Assembly: GCF_000497125.1 (NCBI RefSeq)
Contig: NC_090601.1
Location: forward strand, 62,001-126,000
Source of the DNA: Spironucleus salmonicida
Lineage: Eukaryota
DNA length: 64,000 nt
Direction: 5' to 3'
Shown: piece by piece, positions 29,110 through 64,000 of the stretch
How the letters are laid out: every line of letters begins with the position of its first letter
Position numbering within the stretch: position 1 is the stretch's first letter
Notes under the pieces: generated by a model
Seen by the model: only the letters and a program-made list of their open reading frames with translations
Told to the model about the DNA's origin: nothing
Databases searched by the model: none
Program-made: the position numbers and the translations under genes

Positions 29110-29310
29110 TCACGGTTAAGACTCTACTAATTACTCGGTATTCATTACCATGTTAGTATCTTTTTTCTTGTTTGTCTTTTTAGCCAGTCTCTTTACTTAT
29201 CTAATTGTAATATCATTAGATCTCGTACATCCTATATATATTGTTAGAATTATATAAAGAAAAGTACATAGTAATCCACCTATAAGAAGAAATATTTTGT
29301 CTGCATCCAT
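29110..29310 (-). CDS. Small single-TM protein
   Basis: 66 aa; IFLLIGGLLCTFLYIILTIYIGC followed by a basic tail. Confidence 0.55.
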
Positions 29311-29362
29311 TTTTTGTTTATAATTTATATATTACTATACTGATTTTAATATAAATTCTCAA

Positions 29363-31276
29363 ATGAATAGACCATTTTTTTCATAAACATATACAGGTAC
29401 TCCAATTGTAGGTTATCAGGATGGTCCATTATATAATGCGTAGTTTTCTCGCCCATTTGGTATCACTTTTTCTAGTGGTGATTTTTACGTCACTGATCGA
29501 TCTGCACCAACATCTATTCGAAAAATTAATAAATAAGGAGTTACATCTCTCAAATGGTCTAATACTAACCAAGAATTATTGCATCCTACTTGTACTATTG
29601 AACGAAATGGTTTTTATTTTATTGCAGACCGTGGCCATGATAAAATTAGGTATCTGGTTCCAGAAACCGGAACTTTGAAAACATTATTATTATAGAACAT
29701 AAAAGCTCCAAATTAATTATGCTTTTTAAACGAAGATTTACTAGTGTTAGACTAATCTTAACTTTTAAAAGCAACCTTGCATATATCAAAGGCTGAGGTT
29801 ACTGTATTAGGCGTTACGATTATTACTCAGAATCTTAAACGACCAGAAGGGCTATTATATCATTAGGGTAATATTTATATATCTAATACATTAAATCACT
29901 AGATACTAAAATTATCCTTAGACTCGGGATAGATCGAAGTATTTGCAGGAAATCGGGCTGGATTTACTGATGGTCCAGCATTATAGGCTTAATTTCGATC
30001 TCCAACAGCTCTAAGTGCTTTAAATGATAGAATATTTGTTTCTGATAGAGATAATCATACTATTAGAGTTATTAGAAACGGTATAGTGGAATCATTATCA
30101 GTTGGTGGTGCTAGAGGGTATCAAAATGGTGCGTATGATGTTATGAAGTTTAGTGAACCTCACGGTCTATGTGCTATATAGAAAGGATTTTACATTTAGT
30201 TATTTGTATGTGATGTTAAAAATGCATGTATAAGAGTATTAGCAAACGCTAGGTCTGAGGATGCATTTGATGATTTAGAACACGCAGAAGAAGGTTTCAC
30301 TACAAACTAGTAGGAAGATATTAATGAATCAGAATAAAAATTCGTAAAAATTGACGAGTCTCAGAATTAAGACCTATCAGTAAATTTATAGACGCAAGAT
30401 ATACAACTTAGAGACTTTTCAACACTTAATAAACAAAAAAAATAATTGAAAAAAGCAGATTATGCTTATATTCATCCATATGCTGCATTTACTTAAATAA
30501 TGAAGAATAATAGTTTCGATATGGTAAATTTTTAACGCCTTTTTGCAGCATCAAAATTCCTTGAAACAAAAGACATTATTGAATTTCTTTGCACATATAA
30601 TCAAGATTTAATTTATCCGTTAGCTATGGCTTACTTTAACTATTATGAAGTACTTATTGAAGCTATTAATAAAAATGTATAATTAGATAAAAATTTAAAA
30701 ACAATTCTTGTACTAAGAAATCTTCTAGTATATGGTCTATTAACATATAAGGCCTAATTATTTAGATCACTAATTTCTACTCCTAATGCTCATTCATTTT
30801 TGCTTTGCACACTTTCGAAGTCTTTAATCTGTACGAAGACTCGGATATCAGTTAATGGAGAAATAATTGATTTAACTAAAAATGGTGAGTTTAGAAACAA
30901 TAAAATTTAGTATGGTAAAAAAATGCTCTTTTAGTTTGAAATTTAATTAACCTATAAAAGTACAGACAAGGAGGACGAAATGTAGTTTGAAATAGATATT
31001 TCGAGTCCAGTTCTGTCATTATAAAGTAAAACTCATTATTTTGGTCTTTAAAAGTTTCAAACTTATCAGTAGGGTATTGGGAAAATAGATTTATAGGTTA
31101 ATGGAATTGAAGCTGTCAAGGATTCTAAGCTCGCGTTTTAAGTTAATGTTAAAGTAGGATCGAAAAAATAAAATATTAAAGTACGATTTAGTGGTGACTA
31201 AGCTGTAAAGGTTTAAGATAGTGTTAGCAGAATAATGTAATTGTAATAATAACATGTTCTGATTACGATTGACTGA
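29363..31276 (+). CDS. NHL-repeat beta-propeller protein with C-terminal extension
   Basis: 637 aa; GYQDGPLYNAQFSRPFGI, FIADRGHDKIR, GFTDGPALQAQFRSPTAL, VSDRDNHTIR. Confidence 0.85.
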
Positions 31277-31335
31277 GTAGTATTAAATTATTATATATTT
31301 ATATATTAAAATATTGATATAATTTAAATTCCGCA

Positions 31336-32523
31336 ATGAATAAATTAATTGCAGTTGAGGCATGCAGATGTTTATCCGTTATTTAAGATATGATAGATAC
31401 TTTAGAGTAATTATAGTTAGTAACACCTAGTCTATTTGGTACAGTTGATATAGAATCTGTTTTTGGTTAAAGACTTTCAGATTTACTTAGAGAATATTCA
31501 AGAAAAAGACTTGCATTGGAATCAGCTTTAGCAGAATAAGCTACAGTACGTGCTGGAGGATTCAAATCTCGTTTAAAATCTCTTGAAAAGAAAATTGTTA
31601 ACTGTACTAAAGAGTATAAGTTAGAGGTTGAGAAGCTAACTATGGAGTTTTCTGTTTCTAGAGAATTTTATAGTAAATTAGTATCAAATGGTGTTAATGT
31701 TTAATAATTATTACCATAGTAGTAAATTTAGATAGGAGGCGGTGGCGGTAAGTCTATGGCATCTGGATCAGTAGCCTAAGAATAACAACAATCAATTGGA
31801 TAAGCTGGGGCGGTCTAATAGTATTCATCTATTTAGGATTTAATTCACATACTAAAAAATATGCATAATGTTGTAAAGCTTAATATGAATACATCCGTAT
31901 AGTAGGAATAAAATAGAAAACAACTAATATCATAGCTCACATAATCAGAAAGATAACAGTAAAACACTCATGCTTCCTTATTGAAAGAATTTGACCTATT
32001 ATTTAATTAAAACAAGTAATAAGAATCTAGTTTAAATGATTAAATTAGCTCTGTCAACAATCAGCTGAATCTTAATGCAACAAACGCTGACTCTACTGCG
32101 AATAAACTATTATAATAAGCCAGTACTGCTGAAACAGATGACGCAACAAATTTCACATAATAAATTGAGTAAATTAAAGCTTCAATGAATGAACTAGGAA
32201 GAAAATTAACTGACCTTAGTAAAAAATAAAAAGAGTAGAGTTCATAAGTAAATAGGGATAAGAGAAGAGCATTTGTAAATATTAGAGATAATATTCATAA
32301 ATTTGATTAAAATGCAAAGAAATTAGATGAAGATATATTCAGATTAAAACATGAGATCAGATTAAGCGATACTAGAATTTCCTAACTAGATGAAATTATT
32401 GCAGAATATAAAAAAGATAAAACGTATAGAGATTCTTTAGGAGACTAAGCAGAAAAAAAGAAAGAGCGTTGGGAAATGTTCTGGGAACTTGCGCCTGAAT
32501 GTTATATTGAGAGAGAAGATTGA
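31336..32523 (+). CDS. Coiled-coil flagellar protein, DRC10/IQCD-like
   Basis: 395 aa; LIAVEACRCLSVIQDMIDTLEQL N-terminus and IHKFDQNAKKLDEDI resemble DRC10; no IQ motif seen. Confidence 0.5.
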
Positions 32524-32585
32524 CATTTTATAAATATATTATTATATAGATATTATTATATACACGTTTCATTTTCCACTTCAGA

Positions 32586-33908
32586 ATGATATCATCGCTA
32601 ACATTGATCGACTTGCCTTTAAGACAGAAGCCTTAAGCATACAAAGCCACAACCTAAGACCGAATAAATTTAAACACTTTAAAATAAGAAGAATTAGTGC
32701 ATGAATAGGTTGTTTTGCCAGAATTGGTAAAGTAAGAAAATATAGATGTCAATGAAGAATCATCATCTGAAAATCATTAATAGTTTTAAAATTGTGCAGA
32801 ATAATTTGATGATTCGGATTCAGATATGGATGGGTTCGAATACACAAAGAATGATAACGTATTTGTTACATGTAGATCGGCAGAATTAGGTTATGTTGAT
32901 GTTATGGTTTTCAATAGACGTGGAGATTTTTTCCTACATCACAATTACTAGCTGCATTATCTTCCACTTTCATCAGTACCAGTTGGGTTTAATCCTTATA
33001 CCAAAGAAACAGGAAATTTTGTTGCAATTTCTGGTACAACAAATGAAATTGAACTATTCGATTTAGATGTTTTAGACTCAATTCAACCAGACCTAGTATT
33101 AGGTGGAAATAAAGTCGTTAAAAACAAAAAAGGGAAAAGAGTGGAATTATAGAGACCAGGAAGTCATAACGGCTCAGTGCTAAGCCTTACATGGAGCAAA
33201 TTACATCCAAATATTTTAGTTAGCGCAGGTGAAGATACAATAAAAGTTTGGGATTTATCTACATAAAAATTGGTAAGCAATATTGAATCTCATGATGGTG
33301 TGGTAAGTTAGGTTAGATTCCACGCTGAAATTTCATAAATTATGTTAAGTTGTGGTCTTTCTGATCGAAAAATTATTATTCATAATTTTGCTAATGATAC
33401 GCATACTGTTATATATACCAGTGATGTAGATTTTGAATAATGTGAATGGTATGGTAATTCGGTAATTTTTACTACTGAAGATGGAAAAATTGGTATCGTT
33501 AATGTTGAAAAATGTGAATTGGTGAGCATATTCCAATGTTTTCAAGAATAAAAATCTAAGCCATTAACTGCCCTTGCTATACACCCATCTGGTAATATTG
33601 TTATTGTTGGAAGTCCAGAAGTTAAAGAAGTTGCAATTTTGCTAGTTAAAGACGGCTAATTTTAATTGCACTCTTTACATTAAACAGGTTAAGTTTTTTC
33701 TGCATTGTTTATGCCGGGATATGATTCATATGCATGCACACTTGGTCATGAAAATGGTAATATATCTCTATTTTAAGTTTATTCGCGTATTGGTGTTGAA
33801 AATATTTCATCATTTGTAGATAAACCAGAAATGTTCATGGAAATGAAAGACTTAAAGGTGTTTGTAGAATAAGATGATAATGATGATAATGACAACGTAG
33901 AATAATGA
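32586..33908 (+). CDS. PWP1: Periodic tryptophan protein 1 (WD40)
   Basis: 440 aa; FFLHHNYQL, GNFVAISGTTNEIELFDLDVLDSIQPDLVLG, SHNGSVLSLTWSKLHPNILVSAGEDTIKVWDL. Confidence 0.85.
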
Positions 33909-33919
33909 ATTTTTGATTT

Positions 33920-34432
33920 TCACTTCTTAGCTTTACCTTTAGGTATTGGTGCAGGCGCAGGTGCAACTTCATCCTTAGGGGCTGCTACTTTAGGATCATT
34001 CTGAGATGGCTCTGCTTTATCTTAAATTTCAGCAGATATAGACTTTTCATATTTAAGCATAGCCTTTTTATACTTATCTTATACTTCCTTATATAACTCG
34101 TCTCCTAATATCAATTTGCAAGCCGCCTCAACTTAAGCTGCTCCTAATGTTGATCTTTACTTAATTTTTATCATTTAAAAAGAGGTACTTGTAATCTTTT
34201 CAAACATATCGAAAGTAAACGAATTAAGTGCATCCATTGCTTGCTTTGAAATACGTAAATCAGAAGCAAGTGAGCGGAAAATTTTATAAATATAATTCTA
34301 AAATGTAGGTCGTGCACGACGAGCACGGCGGGAAATAACTACTGCAGATGCAGTAGAACGAGTATGCGATGTATCAGATAGATTCTCATTTAAATGAGAA
34401 TTGTCTGCTTAGGAAATTTCGGAACGATCCAT
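33920..34432 (-). CDS. Divergent histone H2B variant
   Basis: 170 aa; TFQNYIYKIFRSLASDLRISKQAMDALNSFTFDMFEKI...RSTLGAAQVEAACKLILGDELYK...KAMLKY. Confidence 0.88.
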
Positions 34433-34532
34433 AATTACTAAGGAAAGGGAAAATTCTATCAATATATAGTATATTAAAGATATTATTATTAAGAGTAATA
34501 ATATTATATAAGAATATAAGAATATAATTATT

Positions 34533-34841
34533 TCAAATTACTTTTTACAATTTTTCCTCAACATTCTTAACATCCTACAAAATATTCTCAAAGTCAACAC
34601 CGTTACCAGCTCCAGCTCTTGCTTTGAATTTCTTTTACTATACTAATAACCACTCTTTTACATTCTCAGCCCCTTAAATTTAATCAGCCATTTGTGCAGC
34701 AGTTGCGAAAAGTTTGGCTTGTATCGCCGTCAAAAAATCAAGCAACAAGTCATCTTCTGCTTACTATGCTAATGCAAAACATGAAGGGAGTGGATTTTAT
34801 GAGGAAGACAGTAGAGCACAAATTTGCTATGACACAGACAT
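34533..34841 (-). CDS. Hypothetical protein
   Basis: 102-aa frame MSVSQQICALL...EEKLQKVI*. Confidence 0.55.
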
Positions 34842-34955
34842 TAGAGGAGTTCCCTAATAACTGTAAACTAATGTATTATAATATATATATTTACAAAATA
34901 GCAATTACTCCATAATTAACTTGAAATTCAAAAACAAGGTGAAAAGATTCCAAAA

Positions 34956-37610
34956 TCACTTCTTCTAATGCTGCTTACTTTTTTTAGAACCTTGGTCCTT
35001 ATGGCCACTAGTTTGACCTTTTCTACCATTTCTATTATTATTGTTACTTTTCCAACTTACTTTTTCTGATGACATTTTAATTTCTACACCTTCAATACTA
35101 CATAATCCACACCCGGTTACTAGACCTTCTTTGGTCTTTATTTCAATTTTTCTAGCACCACACTCACAGAATTCCCCTAGTATTAAAGGTTGACCTTGAG
35201 GTAAATTTGCTGTAGCTTAACAAGATGTACATGTTATTTAAGAGCTGCTAGGAATAGAGAAATTATCTAAATATAATTTTGACTAAAGGTAAATTTATTA
35301 CTAAATTTTTTCAGATTTGCCAACAGGCTTTTCGATTTAAATATCAAATTCGTCAATTGTAATTTTAAACTTTTCTTCTATCTTAGCTGAAGTCTAAGAT
35401 CCTAAAATTAATTTATCACATCCTCCTTTTGAACAAGCAGGACAGTCTGAAATATAATTGTTTCTCAATGATAAAGGACAACTTTAGTTCATGCATTGGT
35501 TACAAGTTAAACCTTTTCCGTCTGATTTGTACCCAAATTCTTCTAAATCTTTTACCATATCTTCATTACCATCTGTGTAACATTTAGGGCAAAAATTAGT
35601 TCTTTTTTCACCTGCAGCCGAAATTGGCGGGCAATTACAATATGCACATCGAATTTTTTGAATTTCATAATGTTTTTAACACTATATTACTGAATAAATA
35701 CGATCGCAAGTTCCACAATAAATACGCTGTGGAATAAGTGATATGAATTTTGTGAATTTATTACACTATGGACACGAAATAAAAGGTTTTCCTGCAGATT
35801 TAATAGTTTGAAATTTAGATTCAAAAAGTTAATCTAGTAGATTGATATTCTACTTAAAAAATTAAAATTTATTAAGATATTTTGTTAATTGTTCATTAAT
35901 CATTTTAACTTTGGAAATTTTTCCTTCTGCCACTTTATTTAAATCTTACTCCATTTTAGATCGGAGATTAGGGGCAACTAGTTCTTTATCAATCAGTTTT
36001 AATCCTTAAATTAACTGAATGCCAAGTTGAGTTGGTTGTAATTAACGCTTTCCTGGTAAAAGCTAAACATAATTTCTATCTTATACATTCTGTATATGCT
36101 AAGCCATAGAAGCATCTGTACCAATTAGATTCTTCTCCATCAAACTTAATAAATTTGATTCTGTTAAATAAGTTGGGGGTGTTGTGTATTTTTCTTTTAG
36201 ATTCAATTCATAGAAATCAAAAACATCATCTTTTTAATAACTTATTTATGTAACTTCGTATTATTCATCATCTGCTAAATCTGACTGCTTATATAATATT
36301 TACCATCCAAACGTAATATATTCTTTAGATTTAACATGAAATTTATGTTATTCACATTATAGCTCTACAGTTTTAATATAAAATTCTGCATCAGGCATTA
36401 AAGAAGCTAAAAAATTCTTACAAATCATATTATAAAATGATAAGTCCATTCCAGATAAATCTTAAGCACATTTTGAAGTAGGTGTAATAGGAGGATGATC
36501 TCCAGCATCTACTCCACTTCTAGGCTTTGCACCATACTTGTTTATTGTTTCAATTGCATCATAAGCATAATTAAATTTGATATTCTTAATAACTTCCATA
36601 AAATTAAATTCTTTTGGATAACTTGTAGATTCTGTTCTAGGATAGGTTAAATATCCTTAAAGATATAAAAATTCAGCTTTATACATAGACTCTTATGGCG
36701 ACATATTTAGTGATGTCGAAGCTAATTTCAACATTGCAACTGTATTCAAAGCAATAGGTTTTACTGATTTAGATTTACTTTACTTAATGCTTATTACCTT
36801 TACTTTTCCACCATTTAATTATTTAATAATATGTAAACCCATGTCTTATTCAAAAATTTTATTTTCTGAAATAAAATCAATTTTTTCAATATTTCCTTTA
36901 GAATCTTTGATTTAAACATCAACATTATAATATCTTTTAGGTTTAAAGTTTAGTATTTCCAAATGACGTTCAACACAAAATGCTAAAGTTGGAGTCTAGC
37001 ACGGACCATAACTTATACAATTAGTTTAAAGGTTAGAATATTTTCCAGATAGAAACTATGTTTAAAAACGTGTAAATGCAACACCTACTTTTAAATCTAA
37101 CTCTTGTCTTACCTCAACTGCATCAGATAAATATTAATTTGGTTTATCAACTTTTCCTAATTATCTAGTTATTTCTTCTTTAGTTAAAGCTGAGAATCTT
37201 AATCTAAAAATATCACCATTAAACTTACCAATAGACTTTAGCACTTCAAAACAAATATTTTCCCCTTCTCTATCATTATCTAATGCTAGTATAATATATT
37301 TAGCATTTTTGGACAAAGCTTATAATTATCTAATGATTCCACCTGCTCCTTTTGTAGTTTCATACTCTACACCTTTCTGTTCTAATAATTCTTCTTCCGG
37401 TGTTTACCAAGACTGTAGTTTAGTATTAAATATAATTTGATATAAATGGCCTGCGACAGATGTGGAAATTGCTTATTTAGCTTATTTAAAAGAAAATGGG
37501 AATGAATAAACAGGAGTAGATGATGAACTCTAAGAAGATACATTTGGTGATAAAAGTCTTGCAATAGATTGAGCGATTGAAGGTTTCTCAGAAATAAATA
37601 ATGTGGTCAT
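34956..37610 (-). CDS. TOP3B: DNA topoisomerase III beta (type IA)
   Basis: 884 aa; ISEKPSIA, TSVAGH, LDNDREGENICFEV, RQELDLKVGVAFTRFQT, SYGPCQTPTL, GYLTYPRTE; C-terminal CxxC repeats. Confidence 0.93.
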
Positions 37611-37656
37611 TAAAAGGAATGGTAATAATATTTAATAAAATGATATAAATTAATGA

Positions 37657-38871
37657 TCATTATATCCATTTCCATTGAATATCAACAGCATCAAGAGCAT
37701 CACAAACCCATTCTGGAACTTTCTATTATTCAGTAAACCAATTACGTAAAAAAATAGAGACAAATTCATCTAATTTCTCCGTTTATATAGATTCTCTAAC
37801 TTAACTCATTAAATTTAACAAATAATAAACATTATGGGCACTAACCAATTATCCACCGACACTTTCACCTTCTTTAAATAGAATATTTAACCTTGCTTTA
37901 GTAAATCCGCTAGAGCAAGCTTCACACCCACAACCCTCTTCGATAACAGTAAAATCATTGCAATAAGCTTCTCTAGTTAAATATAATTCTCCTTTACCTG
38001 TAAGTGCTGTACCAAAGCGACCTGTCCTAGTAGCATATACGCAATCAAACATATCAACACCTAAGCATGAACAAGTTACTAAATCAACAGGAAAACCCAC
38101 GCCCATAAGATAGCGTGGTAAATCTTGCGGAAGATTTATTGTACAATAAAGAACTGTTCTCCAAAAGTCATCTTTAGCCTCACCACCAGAGAGTCCACCA
38201 ATTGCAATTCCTCCGAATGATTCTTTCCTTTCAGTAATATCTCTAATACATTAGTCTCTATTTCCATTTTTAGTACAATCCAAATGACCTTGACAAATAG
38301 CAAATAATGCTTAATTCTAGGTAGTATGTGCAGAAATGCATCTGTCTAACCATCTAGTAGTCCTTAGTGATGCCTCAGCTATACGCTCTGCATCATTAAC
38401 CTTATCTAACTAAGCAGACACAACATCATCTAAGCACATTATAACATCTGTTCCAATCGCTTGCTATGTCTTAATAGAAATTTCAGGGGTTAATAACTCA
38501 GAAAATCCAGTAACTGGGGATATAAAAGTTACGCCCTCTTCGGTCAATTTCGACAGTTTAAGCAATGATACCATTTAAAATCCTCCAGAATCAGTTAAAA
38601 AGTTATTCGGCCAACGCATCAAATTATGTAAGCCACCGGTTTATTCTAAAACTGGGATACCTGGCCTCTAATTTAAGAAGTAAGTATTAGATAACATAAT
38701 TTTAGGGTTAAGAGTCTTAATTTGTTCGGTAGTGAACCCCTTTAATGTTCCTTATGTCCCAACTGGCATATAAACTGGAGTTGCTATATCAGCATGAGCT
38801 AAGGTAAATGTTCCAAGCCTAGCATGTTTATATTTCTTATGCTAAGTATATTTTGCTGGCCCACGTCCCAT
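37657..38871 (-). CDS. QTRT1: Queuine tRNA-ribosyltransferase catalytic subunit
   Basis: 404 aa; TPVYMPVGTQGTLKG, TDSGGFQMVSL, AIGGLSGGE, PRYLMGVG, DMFDCVYATR, CGCEAC...HN. Confidence 0.95.
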
Positions 38872-38929: not shown

Positions 38930-39727
38930 TCACTTCGCTAACCACTTTTCTCTTTTCTTCCCACTGTATTTACTCATTGGTCTAATATCATCTCCCTTTT
39001 CGGCAGCCTGGACTTTCTTGCGCAAAATCCACTCTCTACTATGTTTGTCCATTTTGGTGCTTAAAACGCGTCCGCCATTACCTAAACGCTTGGTTTTGAT
39101 ATCACTAACTTTTCCAATTCGTTTATCGCCAGTAATTCCTCCGGTAAGGACCAAAAAAATCTTTTTCGCCTTTGCGGAATGAGGAAAATCGACTATCAAC
39201 TCGCCTGCAAACCCAGCATCTCTAGATGCATCTAGAATAAGCTTCAGCTGCTTATCATCCTCTGGATAGAATTAGAAGACTGCTCGTGCACCTGGTTTCA
39301 GACACGAAAATAAACTAGAAAATAGACATAATAGTCGTTTATACGGATTTTCAGTATTGTCATTAGAGTAACAGAGCCATTAGAGGCATGAAATTGAAAA
39401 ACAACCATCGAACTGACCAGGCTAGAAAGGTAAGCCTTTACCAGCATCTAGAAGTAACAGCGAGTCGGATTCATTGAGCTTAAGCATGTCCATCGAAATA
39501 TCAAGTGCAATTGTGAGATATCCTTATTCATTTGCGTAATTTGTTGAAATTCCACTTCCAGCTCCAATCTCCAATAATAATGCTGGTGCTTCCATAGATA
39601 GAAGCTCTAACGCCCTGTCTGTGAGCTGCAATTGGACATCATTAATTCTGGTATTATCGTTGTATTGTGCAGCCGTCTCAGCGTTGTAATACATATCAGC
39701 AGGTCCTGTATTCTCTGGTCTTACCAT
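38930..39727 (-). CDS. BUD23: 18S rRNA m7G methyltransferase Bud23/WBSCR22
   Basis: 265 aa; MVRPE...[52 protein letters not shown]. Confidence 0.95.
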
Positions 39728-39760: not shown

Positions 39761-42133
39761 TCAGTCAACGTTGGTTAACCATCCTTGCTTTAAATTTTTA
39801 AGCTTTTCAACAATATCAGGGTTCTGAGAAGCAAGCTGCTACGCCACATTTTATCCTTGAATTGGCTTGTAGATAAAATTCTTTTAAATTGAAGAGTCTT
39901 AAATTTTAGTCTTATAAGCATCATATTCAAGCTGTAACTTTCTAATCTAATCGTCTTTATCTCTTGATAAAGTGTGCTTGTCCTACTTCAACTTTTATAT
40001 TAATGTAGATAAGTCTTTAATTTGCAGTAACATCCTTTCATTCGTTTGATCAGAAATCGTGATTCTTTAAATTAATAACTAAATTTCCTATTCTTTCTGT
40101 TATATCTATGAACCAGACTATTCGTGCAAAAACACGTACTCCAAATTCTGTTTTTCTAATGTCATTATTGTATACTTAATCTGTTCAAGCTGCTACTAGG
40201 AATCTACAAAACGATCGTTTGAAAGCTCCAATCGCTATTTAAATAACTGGCATTGCGACTGCTCATTTCGCAATGAAATCACCATCTGTTTAAGCTTGGT
40301 TATCTCGATATCCTACTTTTATGTCAAAGATAGATTTTCGTTGCCAGTCAGGTCCTTTTCACCATCGTTTCCATCGCTAAATCCTCTCAGCCTGTTGTTG
40401 TCCGCCGTTAAAGTAAGAATCTTTTAGTCGTACTCTTCGACTTCCTGTTCGTTCTGGAACGTCAGCTGCTAAATCTGCTATTCCATGAGGATTTTTTTGG
40501 ATTTTTCTTCTGAAAGCAGATTTTGGAATTCGACGCATTTTTCGTCTTTAAGTATGATTTTCTGCTGTATTTACTCCATTTGAGTCTGCATTTACTTGTA
40601 GTTCAAAATTTCTTCTTTCATCTCCAAATTTTCTTGCAGAAGTAGCTCGATTTCAGCGTCATTTTGCTTCATTTGAGAGGTCTCTGCCGACTCATTTTGT
40701 TGTGCCGGAAGAGCTGCAAGTTTCGTCTCAAGATCTTTGATATCTGCCTCGTAATTTTACTTCATCAAATATTTGGCCTCGTTAGCCTTCTCTAGCTGAG
40801 CTATCAATGATGCGATTCTAATATTCGCATCAGAACCGATTTCATGTTATATCATTTCTGTCTGCAACTCTCCGTTTTCGTCAGATATTGGATTTTACTG
40901 GCCGCTCATACAAAGTAAAAGGTCATCCTATGTTGGAATTTTGACTTCAGATTCTCCAAATTTCTCTTTATACCAGTCAATAGTCTTAGATTGCATGTCA
41001 ATGAATTATTTTTAGCCTAATACTTGTTATTATAGTTTTTCAATAATTGCCATTAACTCTTTGACGGATTTTGTAGCGTTTACTTTAACTTTATTCTTAA
41101 TGCATTTAGCTCGCTTTCCAAAATCTAGAGTTGAAATAGTTTCATCTCTATTGAAAGGATGTGGGGAAACGGCAATTAATAATGTGGTTTTAGAATTTCC
41201 TCCTAAGGATTCTTATAATAATCTTGTGAGTTTTGAATCTCTAAATGGGATATGGCCTTTAAGTTTACCTTCAGATGCTTCAGCTAAGGCTTTGATACAA
41301 AGGCCTAATGCAGTAAGCGATCCATTAATATTTTTAGCTTCTTCAAGTCTTTAACCAACCACTCCTGTTTTACCAATCTTTTCAGATCCTGCTAAATCAA
41401 CTAAACACATTTTTCCTTCTTATTTCGAATTGTCTGTTTTATTATGTTAAGATACATTAATGATAATAACAGTATGTGAACGAGATGATACTGCGTTCAT
41501 AGAAGTTGCAGACACCGCACGATTTGAATCACCAATATTGATGACGGTGATAATATCTTCAGGGCAACAAACTTATGTTTCTACTGCATTTTCAACATAA
41601 ATTCCTCTATCAGGTGATTCTCTTATCTTCAAATTTTCATGATCAGGTCCTCTAGCTAATAAATCATTGACTTACTCATTATAAATTTCTAAGAAAGAAC
41701 AACGAATGGAGTATTCGATATCGTTATTATCAGAATGTAATATATGGTTAAATATATCTTCAGCAGATCTGGGTATAATTCCCTTTCCTTCATCATCATT
41801 GACATCTGAACCAAACATTGAAAATGATTTTCCAGCACCAGTTTGCCCATATGATAAAATAGTACCATTATATCCCTACAAAATTTACTTAACTGTATCA
41901 TTAGCTGCCATATTATACACATCTCTTTATGATACTCCAGGTGGATAAACTCTATCTAGACAATATTTTTTAGTTCCCAAACCACCTTCTAATTCTATCT
42001 CAAGATTTTGCTCATCTATAAAATTGCATACCATCTATTCAGGATCTTTACCAGCTTCAATAAACTCTTTTCTCTCACGGCTATTTATAGGTCTAAATCT
42101 ACAAAGTACTCTGACACTTGCTGCTTCTGCCAT
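39761..42133 (-). CDS. Kinesin-1 heavy chain
   Basis: 790 aa; [50 protein letters not shown]; coiled-coil stalk; tail IYKPIQG resembles the IAK motif. Confidence 0.9.
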
Positions 42134-44357: not shown

Positions 44358-44753
44358 TCACTAAGCTTCTACTTGGCTAGTAATAAGTTAGTCTATCTCC
44401 TCGATATCTTTACCTAATTTTTCCGTATGGGCCTGTTTATTTGCCAGAAGTTTTGTTTTTATGTCAATATCTATCGTCAAAGAAATCTGTTAATTACTTA
44501 AAAGTTTTTCTTAAATATTTAAAATTTATACCATTTTTTCTTCTTAAAGTTCTACCTTTACTCGTCTAAACACATTTAATATTGCAGATTGAAAAACTTC
44601 TAATAGTTATTTTTCAGCAACCTAATATAATTGATTTAAAAGATCAAAGTAATTATCAAAACAAAATATTGCACTATATATTGCTTGTTCAAGTTCAATA
44701 CTACTTTAAAGTTAAATTTCGATTATATGCAACAATTCCTACAAATTGTTCAT
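44358..44753 (-). CDS. Hypothetical protein
   Basis: About 131 aa, MNNLQELLHII...SQVEAQ*; start and stop are in the same frame, middle not fully verified. Confidence 0.45.
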
Positions 44754-44858
44754 TTTTCAATAAATTAAATTTATATAATATTACTTTCATAAACTAATCC
44801 AAAAATAAATTATAAGCTTTATATTTTAATGAATATAATTTCATTCCACTTTATCTAA

Positions 44859-45281
44859 ATGAATTCCACAACTGTTGCAATTATTGGAGCTAAAAATACA
44901 GGAAAATCTTCGCTTGCTACTCGCCTCGCCTATAGTAAATGTAAAGAAATTGAATCTGGGATCTCTGATATTTATAACAGAAAACTGGTTAGTGGAATTT
45001 TAGAAGTTCTTGATGGCTCAAATGATTTTAATGAGAATTCAGATTTTGTTAAAAAGACTTAGTATTTAATAGTCTGTTTTTCTAACACTGAAGAGACTAC
45101 AGAGATGCTTAATCTGGCTTTTGCTTAACGAGGGGGTGAAAAGTTAAAATAATGTTGGGTATTAGGATTACTGAATTAGGTCTAAGGGGCATTTGATAGA
45201 TTTGATGCTATTTGTTTAGATGCCGATGCCAAAAATGGAGTTGGACTTAACTCAATTTATACATAGCTTGGAATTAAGTGA
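44859..45281 (+). CDS. Highly divergent Ras-superfamily small GTPase-like protein
   Basis: 140 aa; VAIIGAKNTGKSSL (G1), ISDIY, LEVLDG, DAKNGVGLNSIY (G5-like). Confidence 0.7.
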
Positions 45282-45347
45282 TAATACTTAGTTAATTTAA
45301 ACCAGATATTGTATTCATAATATCGTTGATTTTAGTAATAATAATTA

Positions 45348-45716
45348 ATTTCAGCTTCCTCGAGGCGGGTGCAGTGTAATGACGAGCTTAGTGATCCAGA
45401 AGATGCGGCGATGACCGTACAAAAAAGCTAGCTGACAGTAAAATCTCAGTTGGATATAAAGTAATCTCATCCATAGTAAACAGAGTTGTAATAGTTAAAA
45501 TAGGATAAGGAGGATATGTAAAAGCTTATTGACTCATTAAAACTAGTATTAATTAAAATGAGTGTTAATATTGATTCTCCAAAAATCTAGTAATACCTTA
45601 CGAAAAATCATGGCGTGGTGCTTATTCCAAGTACGATTGATGATTTGGAAGCTAGCGACCGAGAAATTTTGCATGGTTCCTTAAGGAGCAGTGCTATGAA
45701 TACCAGCCTTTGGTGA
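45348..45716 (+). pseudogene. 5'-truncated duplicate of the 48274-49611 coiled-coil gene
   Basis: Carries only the last ~122 codons; an internal ATG at 45411 could give 101 aa. Confidence 0.75.
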
Positions 45717-45738
45717 GAGTGATATTATCCATTCCTAA

Positions 45739-46020
45739 ATGCAGGTTACTACTTTGGATTAGAATCTTGCTGATATTGAAATCATCCGTCGCAAGAACAA
45801 GGAGTTTTAATCCTAATAGCATAAGATATCGGAAACACTTACTCTTTAATAAGAGCTTATTGAGGAAATCACTCATAATATAGGATCTACAAAAGATCGC
45901 ATGCGAGAAGTTACCTAAAATGCAGACCGGGCTCTATAAAAAATAGGAGGCCTTAAAGGAGCACTAGGTGGTATGGGTACGATATTATGTCTTGGGGTGG
46001 TTTGGTTAATTTTCGGGTGA
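45739..46020 (+). CDS. Minimal Qc-SNARE (copy 1)
   Basis: 93 aa; KISETLTLQQELIEEITHNIGSTKDRMREV plus C-terminal TM MGTILCLGVVWLIFG. Confidence 0.7.
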
Positions 46021-47950: not shown

Positions 47951-48642
47951 ATTTTGAAGTGGCAATCACTCACCCGAAAATTAACCAAACCACCCCAAGA
48001 CATAATATCGTACCCATACCACCTAGTGCTCCTTTAAGGCCTCCTATTTTTTATAGAGCCCGGTCTGCATTTTAGGTAACTTCTCGCATGCGATCTTTTG
48101 TAGATCCTATATTATGAGTGATTTCCTCAATAAGCTCTTATTAAAGAGTAAGTGTTTCCGATATCTTATGCTATTAGGATTAAAACTCCTTGTTCTTGCG
48201 ACGGATGATTTCAATATCAGCAAGATTCTAATCCAAAGTAGTAACCTGCATTTAGGAATGGATAATATCACTCTCACCAAAGGCTGGTATTCATAGCACT
48301 GCTCCTTAAGGAACCATGCAAAATTTCTCGGTCGCTAGCTTCCAAATCATCAATCGTACTTGGAATAAGCACCACGCCATGATTTTTCGTAAGGTATTAC
48401 TAGATTTTTGGAGAATCAATATTAACACTCATTTTAATTAATACTAGTTTTAATGAGTCAATAAGCTTTTACATATCCTCCTTATCCTATTTTAACTATT
48501 ACAACTCTGTTTACTATGGATGAGATTACTTTATATCCAACTGAGATTTTACTGTCAGCTAGCTTTTTTGTACGGTCATCGCCGCATCTTCTGGATCACT
48601 AAGCTCGTCATTACACTGCACCCGCCTCGAGGAAGCTGAAAT
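47288..48642 (-). repeat. Right arm of the 1355-bp inverted duplication
   Basis: Reverse complement of 45348-46702; supplied ORFs 45694-45876(-) and 48114-48296(+) are identical. Confidence 0.95.
47970..48251 (-). CDS. Minimal Qc-SNARE (copy 2)
   Basis: Mirror of 45739-46020. Confidence 0.7.
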
Positions 48643-49611
48643 AACATTCTACTATTTTTCATCTTTAATATCTTTCTAAGCTTTGGGTTTTGAAATATTT
48701 AATTAAACTTAATTAGATAAATTTGCCGATAATTTATTTTCTATAATAGATTTCGGCTGAGCAGCTAACACTTAAATTTCTATAAATTATTGTTATAGCT
48801 ACTTTAACTCATCTTCTGCTTATAGTACTAAATTTTCATTTTCTTGTCTAAGTAATACAATTTCCTCTTTATATTAAATTATCTCTTCTTATAAGTTTTA
48901 TACCAATTAACCTGTTTATTTACTTTATTTTAACTGAGTAATTTCTTTTTATAAAGCTTAATTAGTATTTTTTAACAAATTAACTTCTTATCTATGCTTA
49001 TTTTATGCCGTTTATACCTCAATTTAAATATCTTCAATAAGTTATTATTGTTTTTAGCTACTTTCAATCTCTGCCTGTAATAAGTAATTTGCCTCATTTA
49101 ATTAATTTTGTAAATCATCAATTTTCCTTTTATCAATATAACTTACATTAGAATTATTTATATTTTATTTAGGCGTAGGTTATGGAGGTCTTTATAATTA
49201 ATTTGTAATTGAAGATGTCATCTACTCTGACTTTTTTGATTCCACCAACGACTAAATTCCTTAGATCAGTATTTAAAGATTTCCTAATCCGTCAATAACT
49301 GCTTGTCCTTACTTTAATACTTAACTTAATGCTTATACTGCAGACCCACCATTTCCATCATCTTAAGCCTAAATTAATAAAGACTGAACAACTTCAGAAA
49401 GATCCTAAGCCTCTGAATGATTTCTATTAATATGATCAGAGATAAGAGTCACAGCTTCTTAAATTTTAGCAACATCTTTTGGAACTGCGGATTACAATTT
49501 TTAACGTAAAATTGGCAACTATTTTTAAGCTTTCTAAACAAATTGTGATAATGATTAGTGACGAAGTGATATCTCTTTTATTGTTGGTTACATTGTTTAA
49601 AGCAAACTCAT
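48274..49611 (-). CDS. Coiled-coil protein (complete copy)
   Basis: 445 aa MSLLQTMQPTIKE...AMNTSLW*; 3' end lies in the right repeat arm. Confidence 0.7.
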
Positions 49612-50224
49612 TTTTAAGCGGAAATATTATAAATTATACTATTTAAATTATATAATATTATATTTCGTCTTTAACTTAAATAATAAACATAATATCACTA
49701 AAAATATCTGTGACAGTATTATAATGCTTATTAAAAAATACAAGTAAACATAAAGATTTCTATAGAACAAATACGTGACATCTAAATAAATTATATTGAT
49801 TTTATGTTTGTGATATTAATCTCAAAGATACAAAATTTAAGTAATTGATTTTCAATAATAATGTTAAAATATTTTAATCATTTTGAGGATTATATTAATT
49901 TAATACTAATTTAACTGATAATATTTCAGAATTATGCTCATATAGACTTTCAACTTATAGCCCATATTTATATTAATTATTATATTTTTACACAATATAT
50001 TGACTTTAAATAAATTACAAAATAATTAATAGCTTATAAAACTAATTATAGAGTTTTAAAAACCATTTCCGTAAAAAAATTATTGTAAAAAATTAATCAT
50101 ATTTTTTGCTTAAACATGATTATCAAATATTATATTATAGATATATACCTAAATTTCAATATAATCAAATCAAGTTATATAATTTTATTATGTAATATAT
50201 GAATAATGCACATTATTAAAAGTT

Positions 50225-51168: not shown

Positions 51169-54100
51169 TCACTGAGTTTAACATAATAATGCAGTACCTC
51201 TCATGGCCCACTGAGCGGGCCTCTTCTCGGATCTAAGCTTAACAGCGAAGATAAAGTTCTACCCGGTACGCATTGGAGTCTTGTAAACAGGGCATTCGTA
51301 CAGCATGATGCCTGATTTATCTTTTACAGGCGCGGTGACGACATCACTGGTACTTTCAGTTGCTTCTACAAGCAGAACAGGAAGAGGCGCAAACATCTAC
51401 TTGGACGCTGCATCAATAATAATTTCTTTCTTAGGCTCCCACTGGGCGCCTTCGAGGAATAGTCCATGGATATAAACAGCACCAGACATTTTAGGCTTAT
51501 TTGTCTGGGCTTATTTTTCATCCTTGAACTTCATGACCGACGTCTGGATCATAACCTTGTCTAAAGACCAAGGTGCACCATTAGTAGTGTTGCTACGAGT
51601 AATTTCTTGCTTTACAGATGTAAGGAACCCGTTAGGGTTAAAGAAACCAGTCAACCAGAAAGAAGCAGGCTACTCCTTCATTAACCAGTTAGAATACTAT
51701 GTACATCTGGCCGAAACATCTGATAACCATTATCCTAGCGTTGGAGAAAGCCAGGATATATTTAACCAGCGTGCAGGCACTCTAGCATCGAAGATAGCAT
51801 CCAATGCATCTTATAAATGTTCAGTCATAATAATAGAACCCGCCATAGCTTGCTACAAATCAATAAGTGTGCTGCGAATCATGCTCAGCACAGCTTACAT
51901 TCTTTCGATTTCCTATCCCAAGAAAACAGTCAGGGCCTTAGGAGATGACGAATCTCCATTGAGGGCTTTTAAGTATTATGGAACCTAGTGCTTAAGATCA
52001 TACTTAGGTGGCAGTTTGGTTAAAATATCTTTGGCTTACTTGAGAACTACATCCTCTCTAGACCCTCCTGCTTTAGAACCGCCTGCATCTTTAGGTTAAA
52101 TACTAAGAATAGTTCCTAAAACTGCAGTTGTTTCAGCTTACCTAAATGTAATTTCTGCATTAGGGTGCATCATTAAAGCTTATGGCTTGTCAATCATAGG
52201 CAAATTATCAACAAATTTTCTGATATCATTAATATTAGGTTAAGCTCCAAAAGTTGGCATTTTATAAATTGGAGCACAGAATGAATAGTTAGGTTCGAGG
52301 ACTTATCCTGAAACCCATTCAGCAGTATAAACATTCATTAACTTTCTGTCAAAATCGTCCGTAATACGTCCACCGTAGTGCACTTCTGCTATCATGTAAC
52401 AGATAGTTTTCCATGAAATTTGTTAGTTCTTTCTTGGGTCGAGAGAATACAAATATGACTGCAGGAACTAGATAGAGGCATTAAAGTCATGCTAACCAAA
52501 CTCATACTTAATGCACCAGCCAAGAGGGCCGTACTTCTTTCGCTCAATAATGGTTGAATGCAAATACGCGATTGAATATATAAGAGGAAGCCATTGTGGC
52601 TTGTCAACGGACTCGACAAGGTCCTACGTCATTTGATTAAATGTTCTCTTTAATCCAGCACGAAGGCCTGACGGAGGGTCGTTTGTAAGCTTAATCGACT
52701 TTTACAATAAGCCAATCGGGAATTTCTCGCTTCTTTCCGTAGTGAGAATAAGTCTGAAATCTGGATGAGGGCCCTACTTGGGGTTGAGTGCAGCGAAAAT
52801 ACCCCCAGTTCCCTAATTAGTGCCGATAGCAGGATCCAAGTCCTTGATGTCTTTCTTATCACGACTATCGCCATCATTGTCCCCTCCAAGGGCATTAATA
52901 TAGGCATATCTTTCCCTAACATCTAATACCATGTCGTCAACCTCGGCCATAAACTTGATAGCAAGATGGGAATTGTTGATCATTGCCCATCCACCGTTAG
53001 TGATGCAGTCAGCGACCAGGCGTCGTGCCGCAGGTTCTTATCCTTATCCCATGGAAATCGACTTCAATTCGATCTTTCTCTTCTTAGCAAACATTTCTAA
53101 TTGGCCGGTAGGGTCAGAACCCAATGAAAGCAAGAAACAAACTGGCATGCACTGGTTCGTCTCATTGATCAAAATGTCATCATAATCCGCCACTACAGGC
53201 TCAACAAACTCTTTCCCATCTTCTTTCATGCTCGGATCCTTAGAAGCAAAGCATGATTAAATATATGCAGACGCAGCTAACATTGTCCTATCTTCACGCA
53301 AACATCTAATTAATAATAGTTTTTAGAATTCATTAAGTCTGCCTTCGTATTCTTATGGTAATTTCGCTATTTCAATAGCTTCTTCGTTGTAATAGTTTTT
53401 CCATTCTGACTCATTTTCAGATATCTACTGTGGTAATTGTGCAAATGCAGATAATGCAGAAAGAGCAACAACATTAAGCCATGAATTATCAGCAACGAAT
53501 TAAGGCTTAGACTTTATATTCGATAAATCTAAAGCTGCACCCCCACGAATAAATACAAAAAATTCTTGCTAAGAAATTTTATCCTTCTTCATATCTATTT
53601 TCAAGCACAAATTCAATACAAACAACAATTTATCGCGTTCATATAGACCACGCATAACATACTTGAATAGTTTAAGCGTCATGTATGAAATGATCTGCTG
53701 AATTCTTCTTGCGGCTATATTATTAGGAGGTGCTTCTAAAATAGAAAGATCGAATAGATCCAAGAATTACTTGAGTGATGTTTAATACATGTTATTGACT
53801 AGCGTCATCTCGGTAATAAGGAAATATATAATAGCTCCGCGTGTGGCAACTATAACATACTCTTCACGGGCTTCGTTAATTCTCTTTTCTGTTTCAGCTG
53901 CATTCGCTAGTTTTTCCTTAACTTCTTCGGTCGTTTACTTAGTTTTGTTGAGAACCTCAACTAAAGAGGAGTCGTCAAGTAAATTTCCAGTCGTGTTGCT
54001 TAAACGCTCTAACAAATCTCCCTCCAACTGCAAGGCGATTTTCTTATTAGAGTTAACCTCTTCAAGCAATTAGCGTCTCTGTTCTTCTAGTTCTTTGCGT

Positions 54101-63100: not shown

Positions 63101-64000
63101 GAGAAAATTCTTTTTGCATGAGAGGTAAATTCCGCAGTTTCCACAGTATATTGTTCAGGAATAGATTTTTTTGATGGGCTATTTATATCTACAATTGTTC
63201 CTCCTCGTGTTTCATCCTATTTTGACTTAAATGGTACTCTAAGATGCAACGGTAACAAAGTAGTGCAAGCTATTTGCTTTAAAGAATCATCTATTCTAAA
63301 TTTCATAATATCATTTATAGAATGAATGGTTTCTTTAAGTATATCCACCTAATCAATTACTTATTTTATGTATTATTCTAAATTCAATGAAGTCCAGCAA
63401 ACCTAATCTAAAAGTGGTTGTATTTTTTTCTACAATTTATGCATAAGTGGCTGCATAAGATCAATAGTATCTGAATGAATTTGTTCTGGTAATGACTCTA
63501 TGTCAATTACTAATTATTATAATACATCTCTAGTACCTAGTAACTATGCTTTGTGAAAAACAATAGACAAAACATTATCAGGTATATCAACATTAATTTA
63601 ATAAAGCATATCAGTTTCTCTTATAAGCTCGCTGATCGCAACATCAAAGTTAACAAGAAGGCTCTGGTCTGGTCCTCTCACTAAAACTGTACTCTAAAGA
63701 GAATTTCTTATCTATTAAATTGATTGTGACCATTTCAACAAATTATCCTCCTCAAACTATAGCAGAGACTCCATTGTTGTATTATATATTCTACTGGCCT
63801 ATCTTCCATATTTATTATATTATAATAATGGCATATACCCAAATGGTATGTTATCTTTTGATTAATTTTACATTAGTAATACATTATCGCTGCTATGATT
63901 TCCAATACCCATTTACCATTATTCTTTTTACTCATCTGAAACTTATATAAAAATTCTTTTGAAAAAATTATATGGTCTTGTTATTCTATTAGCTACTAAT
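51169..64000 (-). CDS. Axonemal outer-arm dynein heavy chain (gamma/DNAH5-8-like); 5' end outside the window
   Basis: Eight supplied ORF fragments share one frame; AAA1 [13 protein letters not shown]2 GPTLAGKS...[15 protein letters not shown]3 GEAGSGKT...GGRNDIP, AAA4 GVGGSGKQS, tail LLVNFD...LIRE; ends RGTALLCQTQ*. Confidence 0.93.

What the first reader, a model, noticed from the sequence alone, without database searches (positions are those of the whole stretch)
33920..34432. Unusual histone H2B variant: lysine-free N-tail and ~40-aa C-terminal extension
Seen: a clear H2B fold preceded by MDRSEISQADNSHLNENLSDTSHTRSTASAVVISRRARRARP (no Lys, Ser/acidic-rich, Arg patch). After the conserved KY comes EKSISAEIQDKAEPSQNDPKVAAPKDEVAPAPAPIPKGKAKK. 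Established: canonical H2B has a Lys-rich acetylatable N-tail and ends a few residues after KY; H2B variants are rare; Giardia lacks linker histone H1. Inference: a specialised variant whose Pro/Ala/Lys C-tail might contact DNA or alter ubiquitylation and the acidic patch.
Basis: partly seen in the sequence, partly recalled or inferred. Interest (0 to 1): 0.72.

Follow-up and report, generated by a model that had tools for sequence, protein, structure and literature searches.

The report
Divergent single-copy histone H2B variant
This is a real, transcribed gene for an unusual second form of histone H2B in a diplomonad parasite, distinct from the organism's ordinary multi-copy H2B, and it may build specialised nucleosomes whose tails cannot be acetylated.

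Summary
The minus-strand ORF 33920-34432, read with TAA/TAG=Gln, encodes a 170-aa protein. It has an H2B histone fold, a 42-aa N-tail with no lysine, and 42 residues after the KY motif.

Nine consecutive genes match the published Spironucleus salmonicida order, so this gene is SS50377_10199, already annotated "Histone H2B".

It is not the only H2B. A 116-aa canonical diplomonad-type H2B (P0274, at least 4 accessions, another contig) is 38% identical over the fold.

The window protein groups with three unnamed relatives (45-55% identity) in a separate long-branch clade (100/99). The group shares:
- a Lys-poor, Ser/Thr-rich N-tail with conserved motifs;
- an Arg patch before helix 1;
- no diplomonad L1 insertion;
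- an alphaC helix predicted to run 12-21 residues past KY.

The Pro/Ala/Lys tail is not seen in the relatives and is almost uncharged (+1), so an H1-like role is weak.

Gene-sized contigs with a poly(A) end cover the gene in 4 of 4 runs. A published table shows it falling together with canonical H2B and H2A.

Verdict: a lineage-specific H2B variant, not described as such in six literature searches. Chromatin association and function are untested. Interest is moderate.

The parts
33920..34432 (-). Coding sequence of the H2B variant. It encodes 170 aa plus a TGA stop at 33920-33922, with 7 in-frame TAA/TAG codons read as Gln. By gene order it corresponds to SS50377_10199.
   Evidence: gene-order match
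34307..34432 (-). N-terminal tail, residues 1-42. It has no Lys, 11 Ser/Thr, and RRARRARP just before helix 1. The motifs M-D-R-(N)-S-E-I-S-Q and L-S-D/E..T are shared with relatives.
   Evidence: low pLDDT 51-57
34049..34306 (-). Histone fold plus the canonical part of alphaC, residues 43-128. Predicted helices: alpha1 45-55, alpha2 63-91, alpha3 98-109, alphaC from 111. It lacks the roughly 6-residue L1 insertion of diplomonad canonical H2B.
34013..34048 (-). Predicted extension of the alphaC helix beyond KY, residues 129-140 (mean pLDDT 95 for block 131-140).
   Evidence: the same feature in relative P0003 (helix 101-139)
33923..34012 (-). Predicted disordered tail, residues 141-170: Pro/Ala-rich, ending KGKAKK. 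It is not seen in relatives.
33906..33919 (-). 14-nt 3' UTR. Contigs of two runs end at 33906 with a poly(T)+adaptor loose end on the + strand, which marks a poly(A) tail on the minus-strand mRNA. This overlaps the 3' end of the convergent WD40 gene.
   Evidence: tables 7 and 8
34433..34524 (-). 92-bp AT-rich spacer between the poly(A) site of the upstream small gene (34525) and the variant's ATG. It is the presumed promoter and very short 5' UTR. No motif was tested.

Best explanation
The gene encodes a lineage-specific replacement-type variant of histone H2B in Spironucleus salmonicida. Relatives occur in other, probably hexamitid, diplomonads.

Shown:
- It is an intact, solitary, single-copy gene. 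It is covered by gene-sized contigs with a poly(A)-type end, in runs whose kind (RNA) is the tool's guess.
- It is a true H2B paralogue that keeps the histone fold, the L1 ISK and L2 RST loop residues, the alphaC helix with its K-Y end, and a basic segment before helix 1.
- The same genome holds a separate multi-copy canonical H2B.

Inferred:
- It pairs with H2A and replaces canonical H2B in a subset of nucleosomes.
- It changes three surfaces. (1) The N-tail has no lysine, so it cannot be acetylated or lysine-methylated, and published work reports no arginine methyltransferases in diplomonads. Conserved Ser/Thr motifs remain as the likely regulatory sites (phosphorylation). The Arg patch keeps the DNA-gyre contact of the canonical basic segment (role recalled). 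(2) The alphaC helix is about three turns longer, so it should stick out from the nucleosome face next to the Lys aligned with the H2B ubiquitylation site (recalled). That would change docking of chromatin factors or contacts between nucleosomes. (3) A species-specific flexible Pro/Ala linker ends in KGKAKK and could touch nearby DNA.
For: H2B identity: Pfam Histone 2.5e-9; PDB H2B chains about 4e-15; AlphaFold model, mean pLDDT 82, with the fold region at 93-98; all Foldseek hits listed come from nucleosome or histone-complex entries.

A canonical paralogue exists. P0274 is named Histone H2B [Spironucleus salmonicida], has 4 KAH accessions plus one EST accession, and sits on a 1,610,267-bp contig. 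It is 38% identical to the variant over 102 columns.

The published table lists two H2B rows, SS50377_10199 and SS50377_13020. The window's gene order matches SS50377_10194-10202.

Only one histone gene lies in the 64-kb window (tblastn).

Family status. The library of 1.84 billion representatives gave three relatives at 45-55% identity; the other listed hits were at 40% or less. The variant clade of 3 rows has support 100/99 and lies outside the hexamitid canonical clade (100/99) and the Giardia clade (99/89). N-tail motifs and the QNYIYK / LRISK / NSF.DM signatures are shared.

The extended alphaC is predicted in 2 of 2 family members modelled: helix 111-140 in P0001 and 101-139 in P0003.

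Expression. Gene-sized contigs cover the gene in 4 of 4 runs of one study, with a poly(A)-type loose end at 33906 in 2 of them. The supplement table of PMC6397501 gives:

| Gene | NAO log2FC | padj |
|---|---|---|
| SS50377_10199 (this gene) | -1.17 | 4e-8 |
| SS50377_13020 (H2B) | -1.47 | 7e-5 |
| SS50377_10021 (H2A) | -1.21 | 1e-3 |

The same table gives a DeepLoc nucleus score of 0.81 for 10199.

PRMT enzymes are reported absent from Giardia, Trepomonas and S. salmonicida (PMC7743719, passages read).
Against: - No direct evidence that the protein is in chromatin or pairs with H2A. No H2A sequence of this organism was available to me and no complex was modelled.
- It falls together with canonical histones when antioxidants are withdrawn. 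That looks more like a proliferation-coupled histone than a classical replication-independent variant.
- The strictly Lys-free tail is not conserved. Relatives have 1-3 Lys in the tail.
- The Pro/Ala/Lys tail is not seen in relatives.
- Only three relatives were found, all unnamed and partly truncated. Two metagenome scans found no locus.
- The runs are labelled 'RNA?' as a guess, and their contigs stop 6-44 nt short of the ATG. The same shortfall of 4-36 nt is seen at the three neighbouring genes laid.
- The supplement table is cut, so further H2B rows cannot be excluded.
Confidence: 0.62

Rival explanations
1. It is a stage- or state-specific packaging histone. The long C-tail would stand in for a linker histone and compact DNA, for example in a resting or cyst-like form, much as sperm- or pollen-specific H2Bs with extended tails do.
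For: The tail holds Pro/Ala/Lys runs and ends in KGKAKK. No row annotated as linker histone, Histone H1 or IPR005818 occurs in the stored part of the S. salmonicida annotation table.
Against: The 42-residue tail has net charge +1, with 8 K against 7 D/E, far from an H1-like tail. It is not seen in P0003 or P0002. Transcript-type contigs are present in all 4 runs laid. The gene is quantified in all conditions of the published culture experiment. Absence of an annotation is not absence of a gene, and the table is cut.
Confidence: 0.13
2. It is a drifting, functionally redundant duplicate of H2B under relaxed constraint. The odd tails would be neutral decoration.
For: The clade sits on a very long branch (1.7 changes per column). 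Tail length and charge differ between relatives. Its placement is unresolved: a clade with hexamitid canonical H2B is not rejected (p-AU 0.33).
Against: The ORF is intact and covered by transcript-type contigs. Family-specific motifs in the N-tail and fold are kept among sequences only 45-55% identical. The loop residues and the alphaC K-Y end, which I recall as DNA- and nucleosome-facing, are retained. The alphaC extension is shared by 2 of 2 modelled members.
Confidence: 0.15
3. It is not nucleosomal. It would be an H2B-like histone-fold subunit of another complex, such as a TAF12-type or NF-Y-type partner.
For: Pfam also gives a sub-threshold match to CBFD_NFYB_HMF (20.3 bits against a cut-off of 21.4). 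The Atlas lists CENP-W at rank 30 (score 0.85).
Against: All 60 listed PDB sequence hits are H2B or H2B chimeras, and no TAF or NF-Y chain is among them. The alphaC helix (H2B-specific, recalled) and the pre-alpha1 basic patch are present. The best Atlas clusters are H2B.
Confidence: 0.05

Closest known systems
Canonical diplomonad H2B: S. salmonicida P0274; Hexamita inflata P0385/P0180 cluster; Giardia P0095/P0371, PDB 7D69 chain D
   Same: Same family and fold, same genome. 38% identity over the fold. Shares the ISK/VSK L1 residues, the R(S/N)T L2 residues and the alphaC K-Y end.
   Different: Canonical forms carry a roughly 6-residue L1 insertion and NGGEL (hexamitids). They have a short 15-20-aa N-tail with Lys, end 4-9 residues after KY, and are multi-copy. 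The variant lacks the insertion, has a 42-aa Lys-free tail and 42 residues after KY, and stands alone in its window.
H2B.Z of apicomplexans and H2B.V of trypanosomes
   Same: Lineage-specific protist H2B variants encoded apart from the canonical genes. They are the nearest functional analogy for a replacement H2B that marks special chromatin (PMC3380720 passages; abstracts of PMC8893665 and of the bioRxiv preprint 10.1101/2023.02.14.528480).
   Different: Both are reported to pair with H2A.Z. No H2A.Z row occurs in the stored S. salmonicida table. H2B.Z function is reported to depend on N-tail acetylation (preprint title and abstract), which a Lys-free tail excludes. Orthology was not tested, because no named H2B.Z or H2B.V sequence was in my tree.
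H2B proteins with long tails in other eukaryotes (unnamed library representatives such as P0020 and P0023)
   Same: They have extra residues after KY: 27 and 36 aa.
   Different: Those tails are Lys/Ser-rich and strongly basic, and their N-tails are Lys-rich. They do not group with the variant clade. Many long C-ends in the library look like read-through gene models, so their frequency cannot be judged.

Membership tests
Histone H2B (core histone family, Pfam PF00125) | Histone fold: alpha1-L1-alpha2-L2-alpha3 | tested here: met
   Pfam Histone 37.9 bits against a cut-off of 26.4. AlphaFold helices 45-55, 63-91 and 98-109 with pLDDT 93-98.
Histone H2B (core histone family, Pfam PF00125) | H2B-specific C-terminal alphaC helix after alpha3, ending in the K-Y motif (feature recalled as H2B-specific) | tested here: met
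   Helix 111-140 in the model. K127-Y128 align with the K-Y of canonical H2Bs.
Histone H2B (core histone family, Pfam PF00125) | Closer to H2B than to H2A, H3, H4 or other histone-fold proteins | tested here: met
   All 60 listed PDB sequence hits are H2B or H2B chimeras. All Foldseek hits listed come from nucleosome or histone-complex entries. 1,818 library proteins at E<=0.001, with the top ones H2B-like.
Histone H2B (core histone family, Pfam PF00125) | Basic segment immediately before alpha1 | tested here: met
   RRARRARP at residues 35-42, made of Arg instead of Lys.
Histone H2B (core histone family, Pfam PF00125) | Forms H2A-H2B dimers and enters nucleosomes | not testable with these tools
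Canonical (bulk) H2B of diplomonads | L1 insertion, short Lys-bearing N-tail, end within 4-9 residues of KY, membership of the Giardia+hexamitid clade | tested here: not met
   Alignment. The tree places it outside that clade (Giardia+hexamitid branch 92/60; hexamitids 100/99). However, a tree joining it to the hexamitid canonicals is not rejected (p-AU 0.33).
Canonical (bulk) H2B of diplomonads | Multi-copy gene | tested here: not met
   The variant cluster has 1 member on 1 contig and is the only histone gene in the window. P0274 has at least 4 accessions on one contig.
H2B.Z / H2B.V type variants | Orthology to the apicomplexan or trypanosome variant; partner H2A.Z | not tested
   No named H2B.Z or H2B.V sequence was in the tree. 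'H2A.Z' has 0 occurrences in the stored part of the S. salmonicida table, which is only weak evidence.
Linker-histone-like basic tail | Long, strongly basic Lys-rich tail | tested here: not met
   Residues 129-170 have 8 K, 0 R and 7 D/E, giving net +1. Only KGKAKK at the end is basic.

The most novel reading that the evidence does not exclude
Hexamitid diplomonads carry a previously undescribed class of H2B variant. Its N-tail is blind to acetylation and methylation (no or few Lys, and no arginine methyltransferases in the lineage) and would be regulated only through conserved Ser/Thr motifs. Its lengthened alphaC helix remodels the nucleosome face. It would mark particular chromatin domains, such as transcription start regions, replication origins or the boundary of silent gene families. 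That would make it a functional counterpart of H2B.V/H2B.Z working without H2A.Z.
Probability: 0.25. Interest if true: 0.65.

Novelty: new variant of a known kind. Interest (0 to 1): 0.45.

Why it matters
H2B is the core histone with the fewest well-understood variants. The known protist cases (H2B.Z, H2B.V) work together with H2A.Z.

Diplomonads have a stripped-down chromatin toolkit. Published work reports no arginine methyltransferases, and the annotation table searched here lists no H2A.Z or H1.

A second, conserved H2B with a tail that cannot be acetylated and a longer surface helix would show another route to specialised nucleosomes in such a toolkit.

S. salmonicida can be transfected and tagged, as reported in PMC6429047, so the question is directly testable. 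The practical gain now is modest: the public annotation "Histone H2B" hides two very different proteins.

Tried and rejected
- No whole genome is held for the window, so the genome could not be searched or laid.
- The search for homologous proteins with the variant returned only itself among 94 candidates. This tool misses relatives that the full HMMER scan later found, so the blank meant nothing.
- Looking for Giardia H2B through P0018 and P0074 against the PDB led nowhere, as both are ordinary H2Bs. P0095 was the right handle.
- A search with Giardia muris H2B alone did not reach the Spironucleus canonical H2B. An alignment of diplomonad H2Bs did.
- Two metagenome scans for loci encoding variant relatives found nothing that tblastn confirmed. 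I therefore have no orthologue DNA, no full-length C-ends for P0002/P0153, no synteny and no dN/dS.
- The count of long C-tails among library representatives (43 of 144 with 20 or more residues) was dropped as a rarity measure. Many are fused or read-through gene models.
- Sequencing runs: no listed holder is on record as RNA. The kind of X1-X4 is the tool's guess.
- Contig depth was not used to rank genes, as the tool instructs.
- The Atlas search added nothing beyond 'H2B'.
- No earlier notes of this scan exist for this genome.
- No complex prediction was sent, for lack of an H2A partner sequence.
- TAF12, NF-Y and CENP-W readings were considered and rejected.
- Literature: six searches found no paper describing an H2B variant in Spironucleus or other diplomonads, judged from titles, abstracts and the passages read. 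The searches were: 'H2B variant'+diplomonad, Spironucleus+histone+H2B, 'Spironucleus salmonicida'+histone, 'H2B variant'+Giardia, 'Hexamita inflata'+histone, and H2B.Z/H2B.V/Metamonada. Subscription journals are not covered. The supplement of PMC6759080, which lists metamonad histones, was not opened.

Full report
**1. What is in the sequence**

The finding lies on the minus strand. Under the bacterial code, no ORF of 40 aa or more covers it. Read with NCBI table 6 (TAA/TAG = Gln), a 170-codon frame opens. It runs from the ATG at 34432 to a TGA at 33922-33920 and holds 7 in-frame TAA/TAG codons.

The same code is needed for every large neighbouring gene, and the window is densely packed with long uninterrupted ORFs. 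The frame stays open upstream to 34663, but that stretch translates as low-complexity AT-rich text. An unnamed relative begins at the same Met with MDRNSEISQ.

**2. It is an H2B**

- Pfam gives Histone at 2.5e-9, above the curated cut-off, and a sub-threshold NF-Y/archaeal-histone match.
- Against PDB sequences, 178 distinct chains score E<=0.01. The 60 listed are all H2B or H2B chimeras, with single-domain hits around 4e-15.
- An AlphaFold model built on 55 sequences has mean pLDDT 82, with blocks at 93-98 across the fold. Helices are 45-55, 63-91, 98-109 and a long 111-140.
- All Foldseek hits listed against the PDB come from nucleosome or histone-complex entries. TM by target is 0.76-0.87 for the crystal and cryo-EM chains.
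- The L1 ISK and L2 RST residues, the K-Y end of alphaC, and a basic segment before alpha1 (here RRARRARP) are in place.

**3. Which organism and which gene**

No genome is held for the window. The supplementary table of PMC6397501 lists this run of loci: SS50377_10194 kinesin, 10195 methyltransferase, 10196 queuine tRNA-ribosyltransferase, 10197 DNA topoisomerase, 10198 hypothetical, 10199 Histone H2B, 10200 periodic tryptophan protein, 10201 hypothetical, and 10202 six-bladed beta-propeller.

The window holds the same order:

| Window coordinates | Strand | Gene |
|---|---|---|
| 39761-42133 | - | kinesin |
| 38930-39727 | - | methyltransferase |
| 37657-38871 | - | TGT |
| 34956-37769 | - | topoisomerase III type |
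| 34525-34841 | - | small gene |
| 33920-34432 | - | the H2B |
| 32586-33908 | + | WD40 protein |
| 31336-32523 | + | protein with no family hit |
| 29150-31276 | + | NHL-repeat protein |

GC of 24-39% and a 1.67-Mb contig fit the published S. salmonicida assembly: nine chromosomes, 14.7 Mb, and 30.7% GC outside duplicated regions (PMC9509377 passages). So the gene is SS50377_10199, already annotated "Histone H2B".

**4. Is it the only H2B? No**

The table has a second H2B row, SS50377_13020. The stored part holds 2 H2B, 3 H2A, 4 H3 and 0 H4 InterPro rows. The table is cut and is clustered at 98%.

I reached the canonical protein stepwise. P0095 proved to be Giardia muris H2B, close to PDB 7D69 chain D. 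An alignment of Giardia and unnamed hexamitid H2Bs then retrieved P0274. P0274 is named Histone H2B [Spironucleus salmonicida], has 116 aa, and sits on a 1,610,267-bp contig. It has four KAH accessions with alternate numbers plus one EST accession, so it is multi-copy.

P0274 has an 18-aa N-tail with 3 Lys and ends SSNK after KY. It is 38% identical to the window protein over 102 columns. It shares a roughly 6-residue L1 insertion with Hexamita inflata and Giardia H2B, and NGGEL with the hexamitids. The window protein lacks both. The window holds no other histone gene.

**5. A small family**

The full HMMER scan of 1.84 billion representatives found 1,818 proteins at E<=0.001. Only three were close:

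| Protein | Identity | Length | Note |
|---|---|---|---|
| P0002 | 52% | 135 aa | ends 7 residues after KY |
| P0012 and cluster mates P0151-P0153 | 55% | 88-114 aa | truncated |
| P0003 | 45% | 142 aa | sits on a 55,630-bp contig |

All three are unnamed ENA or Logan records. P0153 stops exactly where P0001 and P0002 have Phe-Gln, and in P0001 that Gln is a TAA. This fits a gene caller halting at a reassigned codon in another code-6 organism (inference).

Shared features are:
- the N-terminal M-D/N-R/Q-x-S-E-I-S, L-S-D/E..T and T-x-x-T-A-S/T motifs;
- R-R-A-R/K-P before alpha1;
- QNYIYK, LRISK, NSF.DM and KY.K....Y.

In a 54-row tree (IQ-TREE, LG+C20, 123 columns) the three full-length variants form a clade with support 100/99, on a branch of 1.7 changes per column. 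It lies outside the hexamitid canonical clade (100/99) and the Giardia clade (99/89) (the bootstrap had not fully settled).

Where the clade attaches is unresolved. It sits at the node between diplomonad canonicals and all other H2Bs, with weak support (45/48). A tree forcing it together with the hexamitid canonicals is not rejected (p-AU 0.33). The duplication therefore predates the divergence of the sampled variant-bearing organisms. Whether it predates the Giardia split cannot be told.

**6. The tails**

*N-tail, residues 1-42.* It has 0 K, 7 R, 11 S/T and net charge +2. None of 144 alignable library representatives has a Lys-free tail of 15 residues or more. Relatives have 1-3 Lys, so the conserved trait is "Lys-poor, Ser/Thr-rich" rather than "Lys-free".

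PRMTs are reported absent from Giardia, Trepomonas and S. salmonicida (PMC7743719 passages). The Arg-only basic patch would then escape methylation too. That leaves phosphorylation as the plausible regulation (inference).

*C-terminal 42 residues.* They split into three parts:
- Residues 129-141 are net -2, and the model makes 129-140 helical (block 131-140 at pLDDT 95).
- Residues 142-164 form a Pro/Ala-rich linker, net -1.
- KGKAKK at the end is +4.

Overall the tail is +1, so it is not an H1-like basic tail.

P0003 also models with an alphaC running 21 residues past KY (helix 101-139), and its tail is acidic. P0002 ends after 7 residues, possibly truncated. The family trait is therefore a longer alphaC. 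The Pro/Ala/Lys tail appears specific to this species.

By alignment, K127 sits at the position of the human H2B ubiquitylation site (site and numbering recalled). It is K in P0003 but R in P0002.

**7. Expression**

Four runs of one study hold the stretch; their kind, 'RNA?', is the tool's guess. Laid on 31300-37800, they give separate gene-sized contigs with very unequal depths. They also give adaptor and poly(A)/poly(T) loose ends at gene 3' ends, which is the behaviour of RNA assemblies.

The H2B variant is covered in 4 of 4 runs: 33906 or 33920 up to 34388-34426. A poly(T)+adaptor end lies before 33906 in 2 runs, which gives a 14-nt 3' UTR. It overlaps the 3' end of the convergent WD40 gene, whose X1 contig reaches 33922.

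The contigs stop 6-44 nt short of the ATG. The three other genes laid show the same shortfall of 4-36 nt, so this does not speak against the start codon.

The published table gives these values:

| Gene | OXY log2FC (padj) | NAO log2FC (padj) |
|---|---|---|
| SS50377_10199 (this gene) | -0.52 (0.026) | -1.17 (4e-8) |
| SS50377_13020 (H2B) | -0.29 (0.53) | -1.47 (7e-5) |
| SS50377_10021 (H2A) | -0.24 (0.62) | -1.21 (1e-3) |

The variant moves with the bulk histones. This argues for a chromatin role but against a clearly replication-independent pattern.

**8. Comparison with what is known, and novelty**

The nearest functional analogues are H2B.Z (apicomplexans) and H2B.V (trypanosomes). Both pair with H2A.Z (PMC3380720 passages; abstracts). 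The stored S. salmonicida table has no H2A.Z, H1 or BRE1 row (weak evidence). A Lys-free tail excludes the acetylation reported as necessary for H2B.Z (preprint title and abstract). Orthology with those variants was not tested.

Six literature searches found no description of a diplomonad H2B variant. The oxymonad genome paper mentions "H2B, three variants" for Monocercomonoides only.

The gene itself is public and named "Histone H2B". What is new is the recognition that it is a separate, conserved variant lineage with a distinctive architecture. I rate it a new variant of a known kind, of moderate interest.

**9. Open points**

- Chromatin association, the H2A partner, genomic distribution and modification are all untested.
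- The taxonomic range rests on three unnamed, partly truncated sequences.
- No orthologue DNA could be obtained.

Noticed in passing
window 34525-34841 (-): A small gene lies between the topoisomerase gene and the H2B variant. Contigs cover it in 4 of 4 runs, with a poly(A)-type end at 34525. The ORF is 102 aa from ATG 34841, or 52 aa from ATG 34691. By gene order it is SS50377_10198, 'hypothetical protein', reported as strongly induced by oxygen (log2FC +2.33, padj 5e-13). No family search was run on it.
   Followed up: partly
window 33906-33922: Convergent transcripts overlap. A contig of the plus-strand WD40 gene (stop at 33906-33908) runs to 33922. The minus-strand H2B-variant mRNA ends at 33906. 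The two 3' ends therefore share about 17 nt.
   Followed up: partly
window 31336, 32586, 34432, 34841 (start codons): Contigs of all four genes laid begin 4-44 nt inside the coding sequence. This fits very short 5' UTRs and trimmed contig ends, so transcript starts cannot be read from these data.
   Followed up: partly
window 44695-45876 (-) and 48114-49778 (+): Two ORFs in opposite orientation share an identical first 50 residues (MSDFLNKLLL...). This suggests an inverted duplication of a gene start.
   Followed up: no
window 51169-63912 (-): A single uninterrupted 4,247-codon ORF under code 6. Together with the other long intron-free ORFs, it illustrates the compact, nearly intron-free genome. 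No family search was run.
   Followed up: no
proteins P0184, P0257, P0261 (unnamed hexamitid canonical H2Bs): These gene models continue past the expected end ...KKW... with a Trp. It looks as if a TGA stop had been read as Trp by the gene caller, so their long C-ends are probably artefacts.
   Followed up: no
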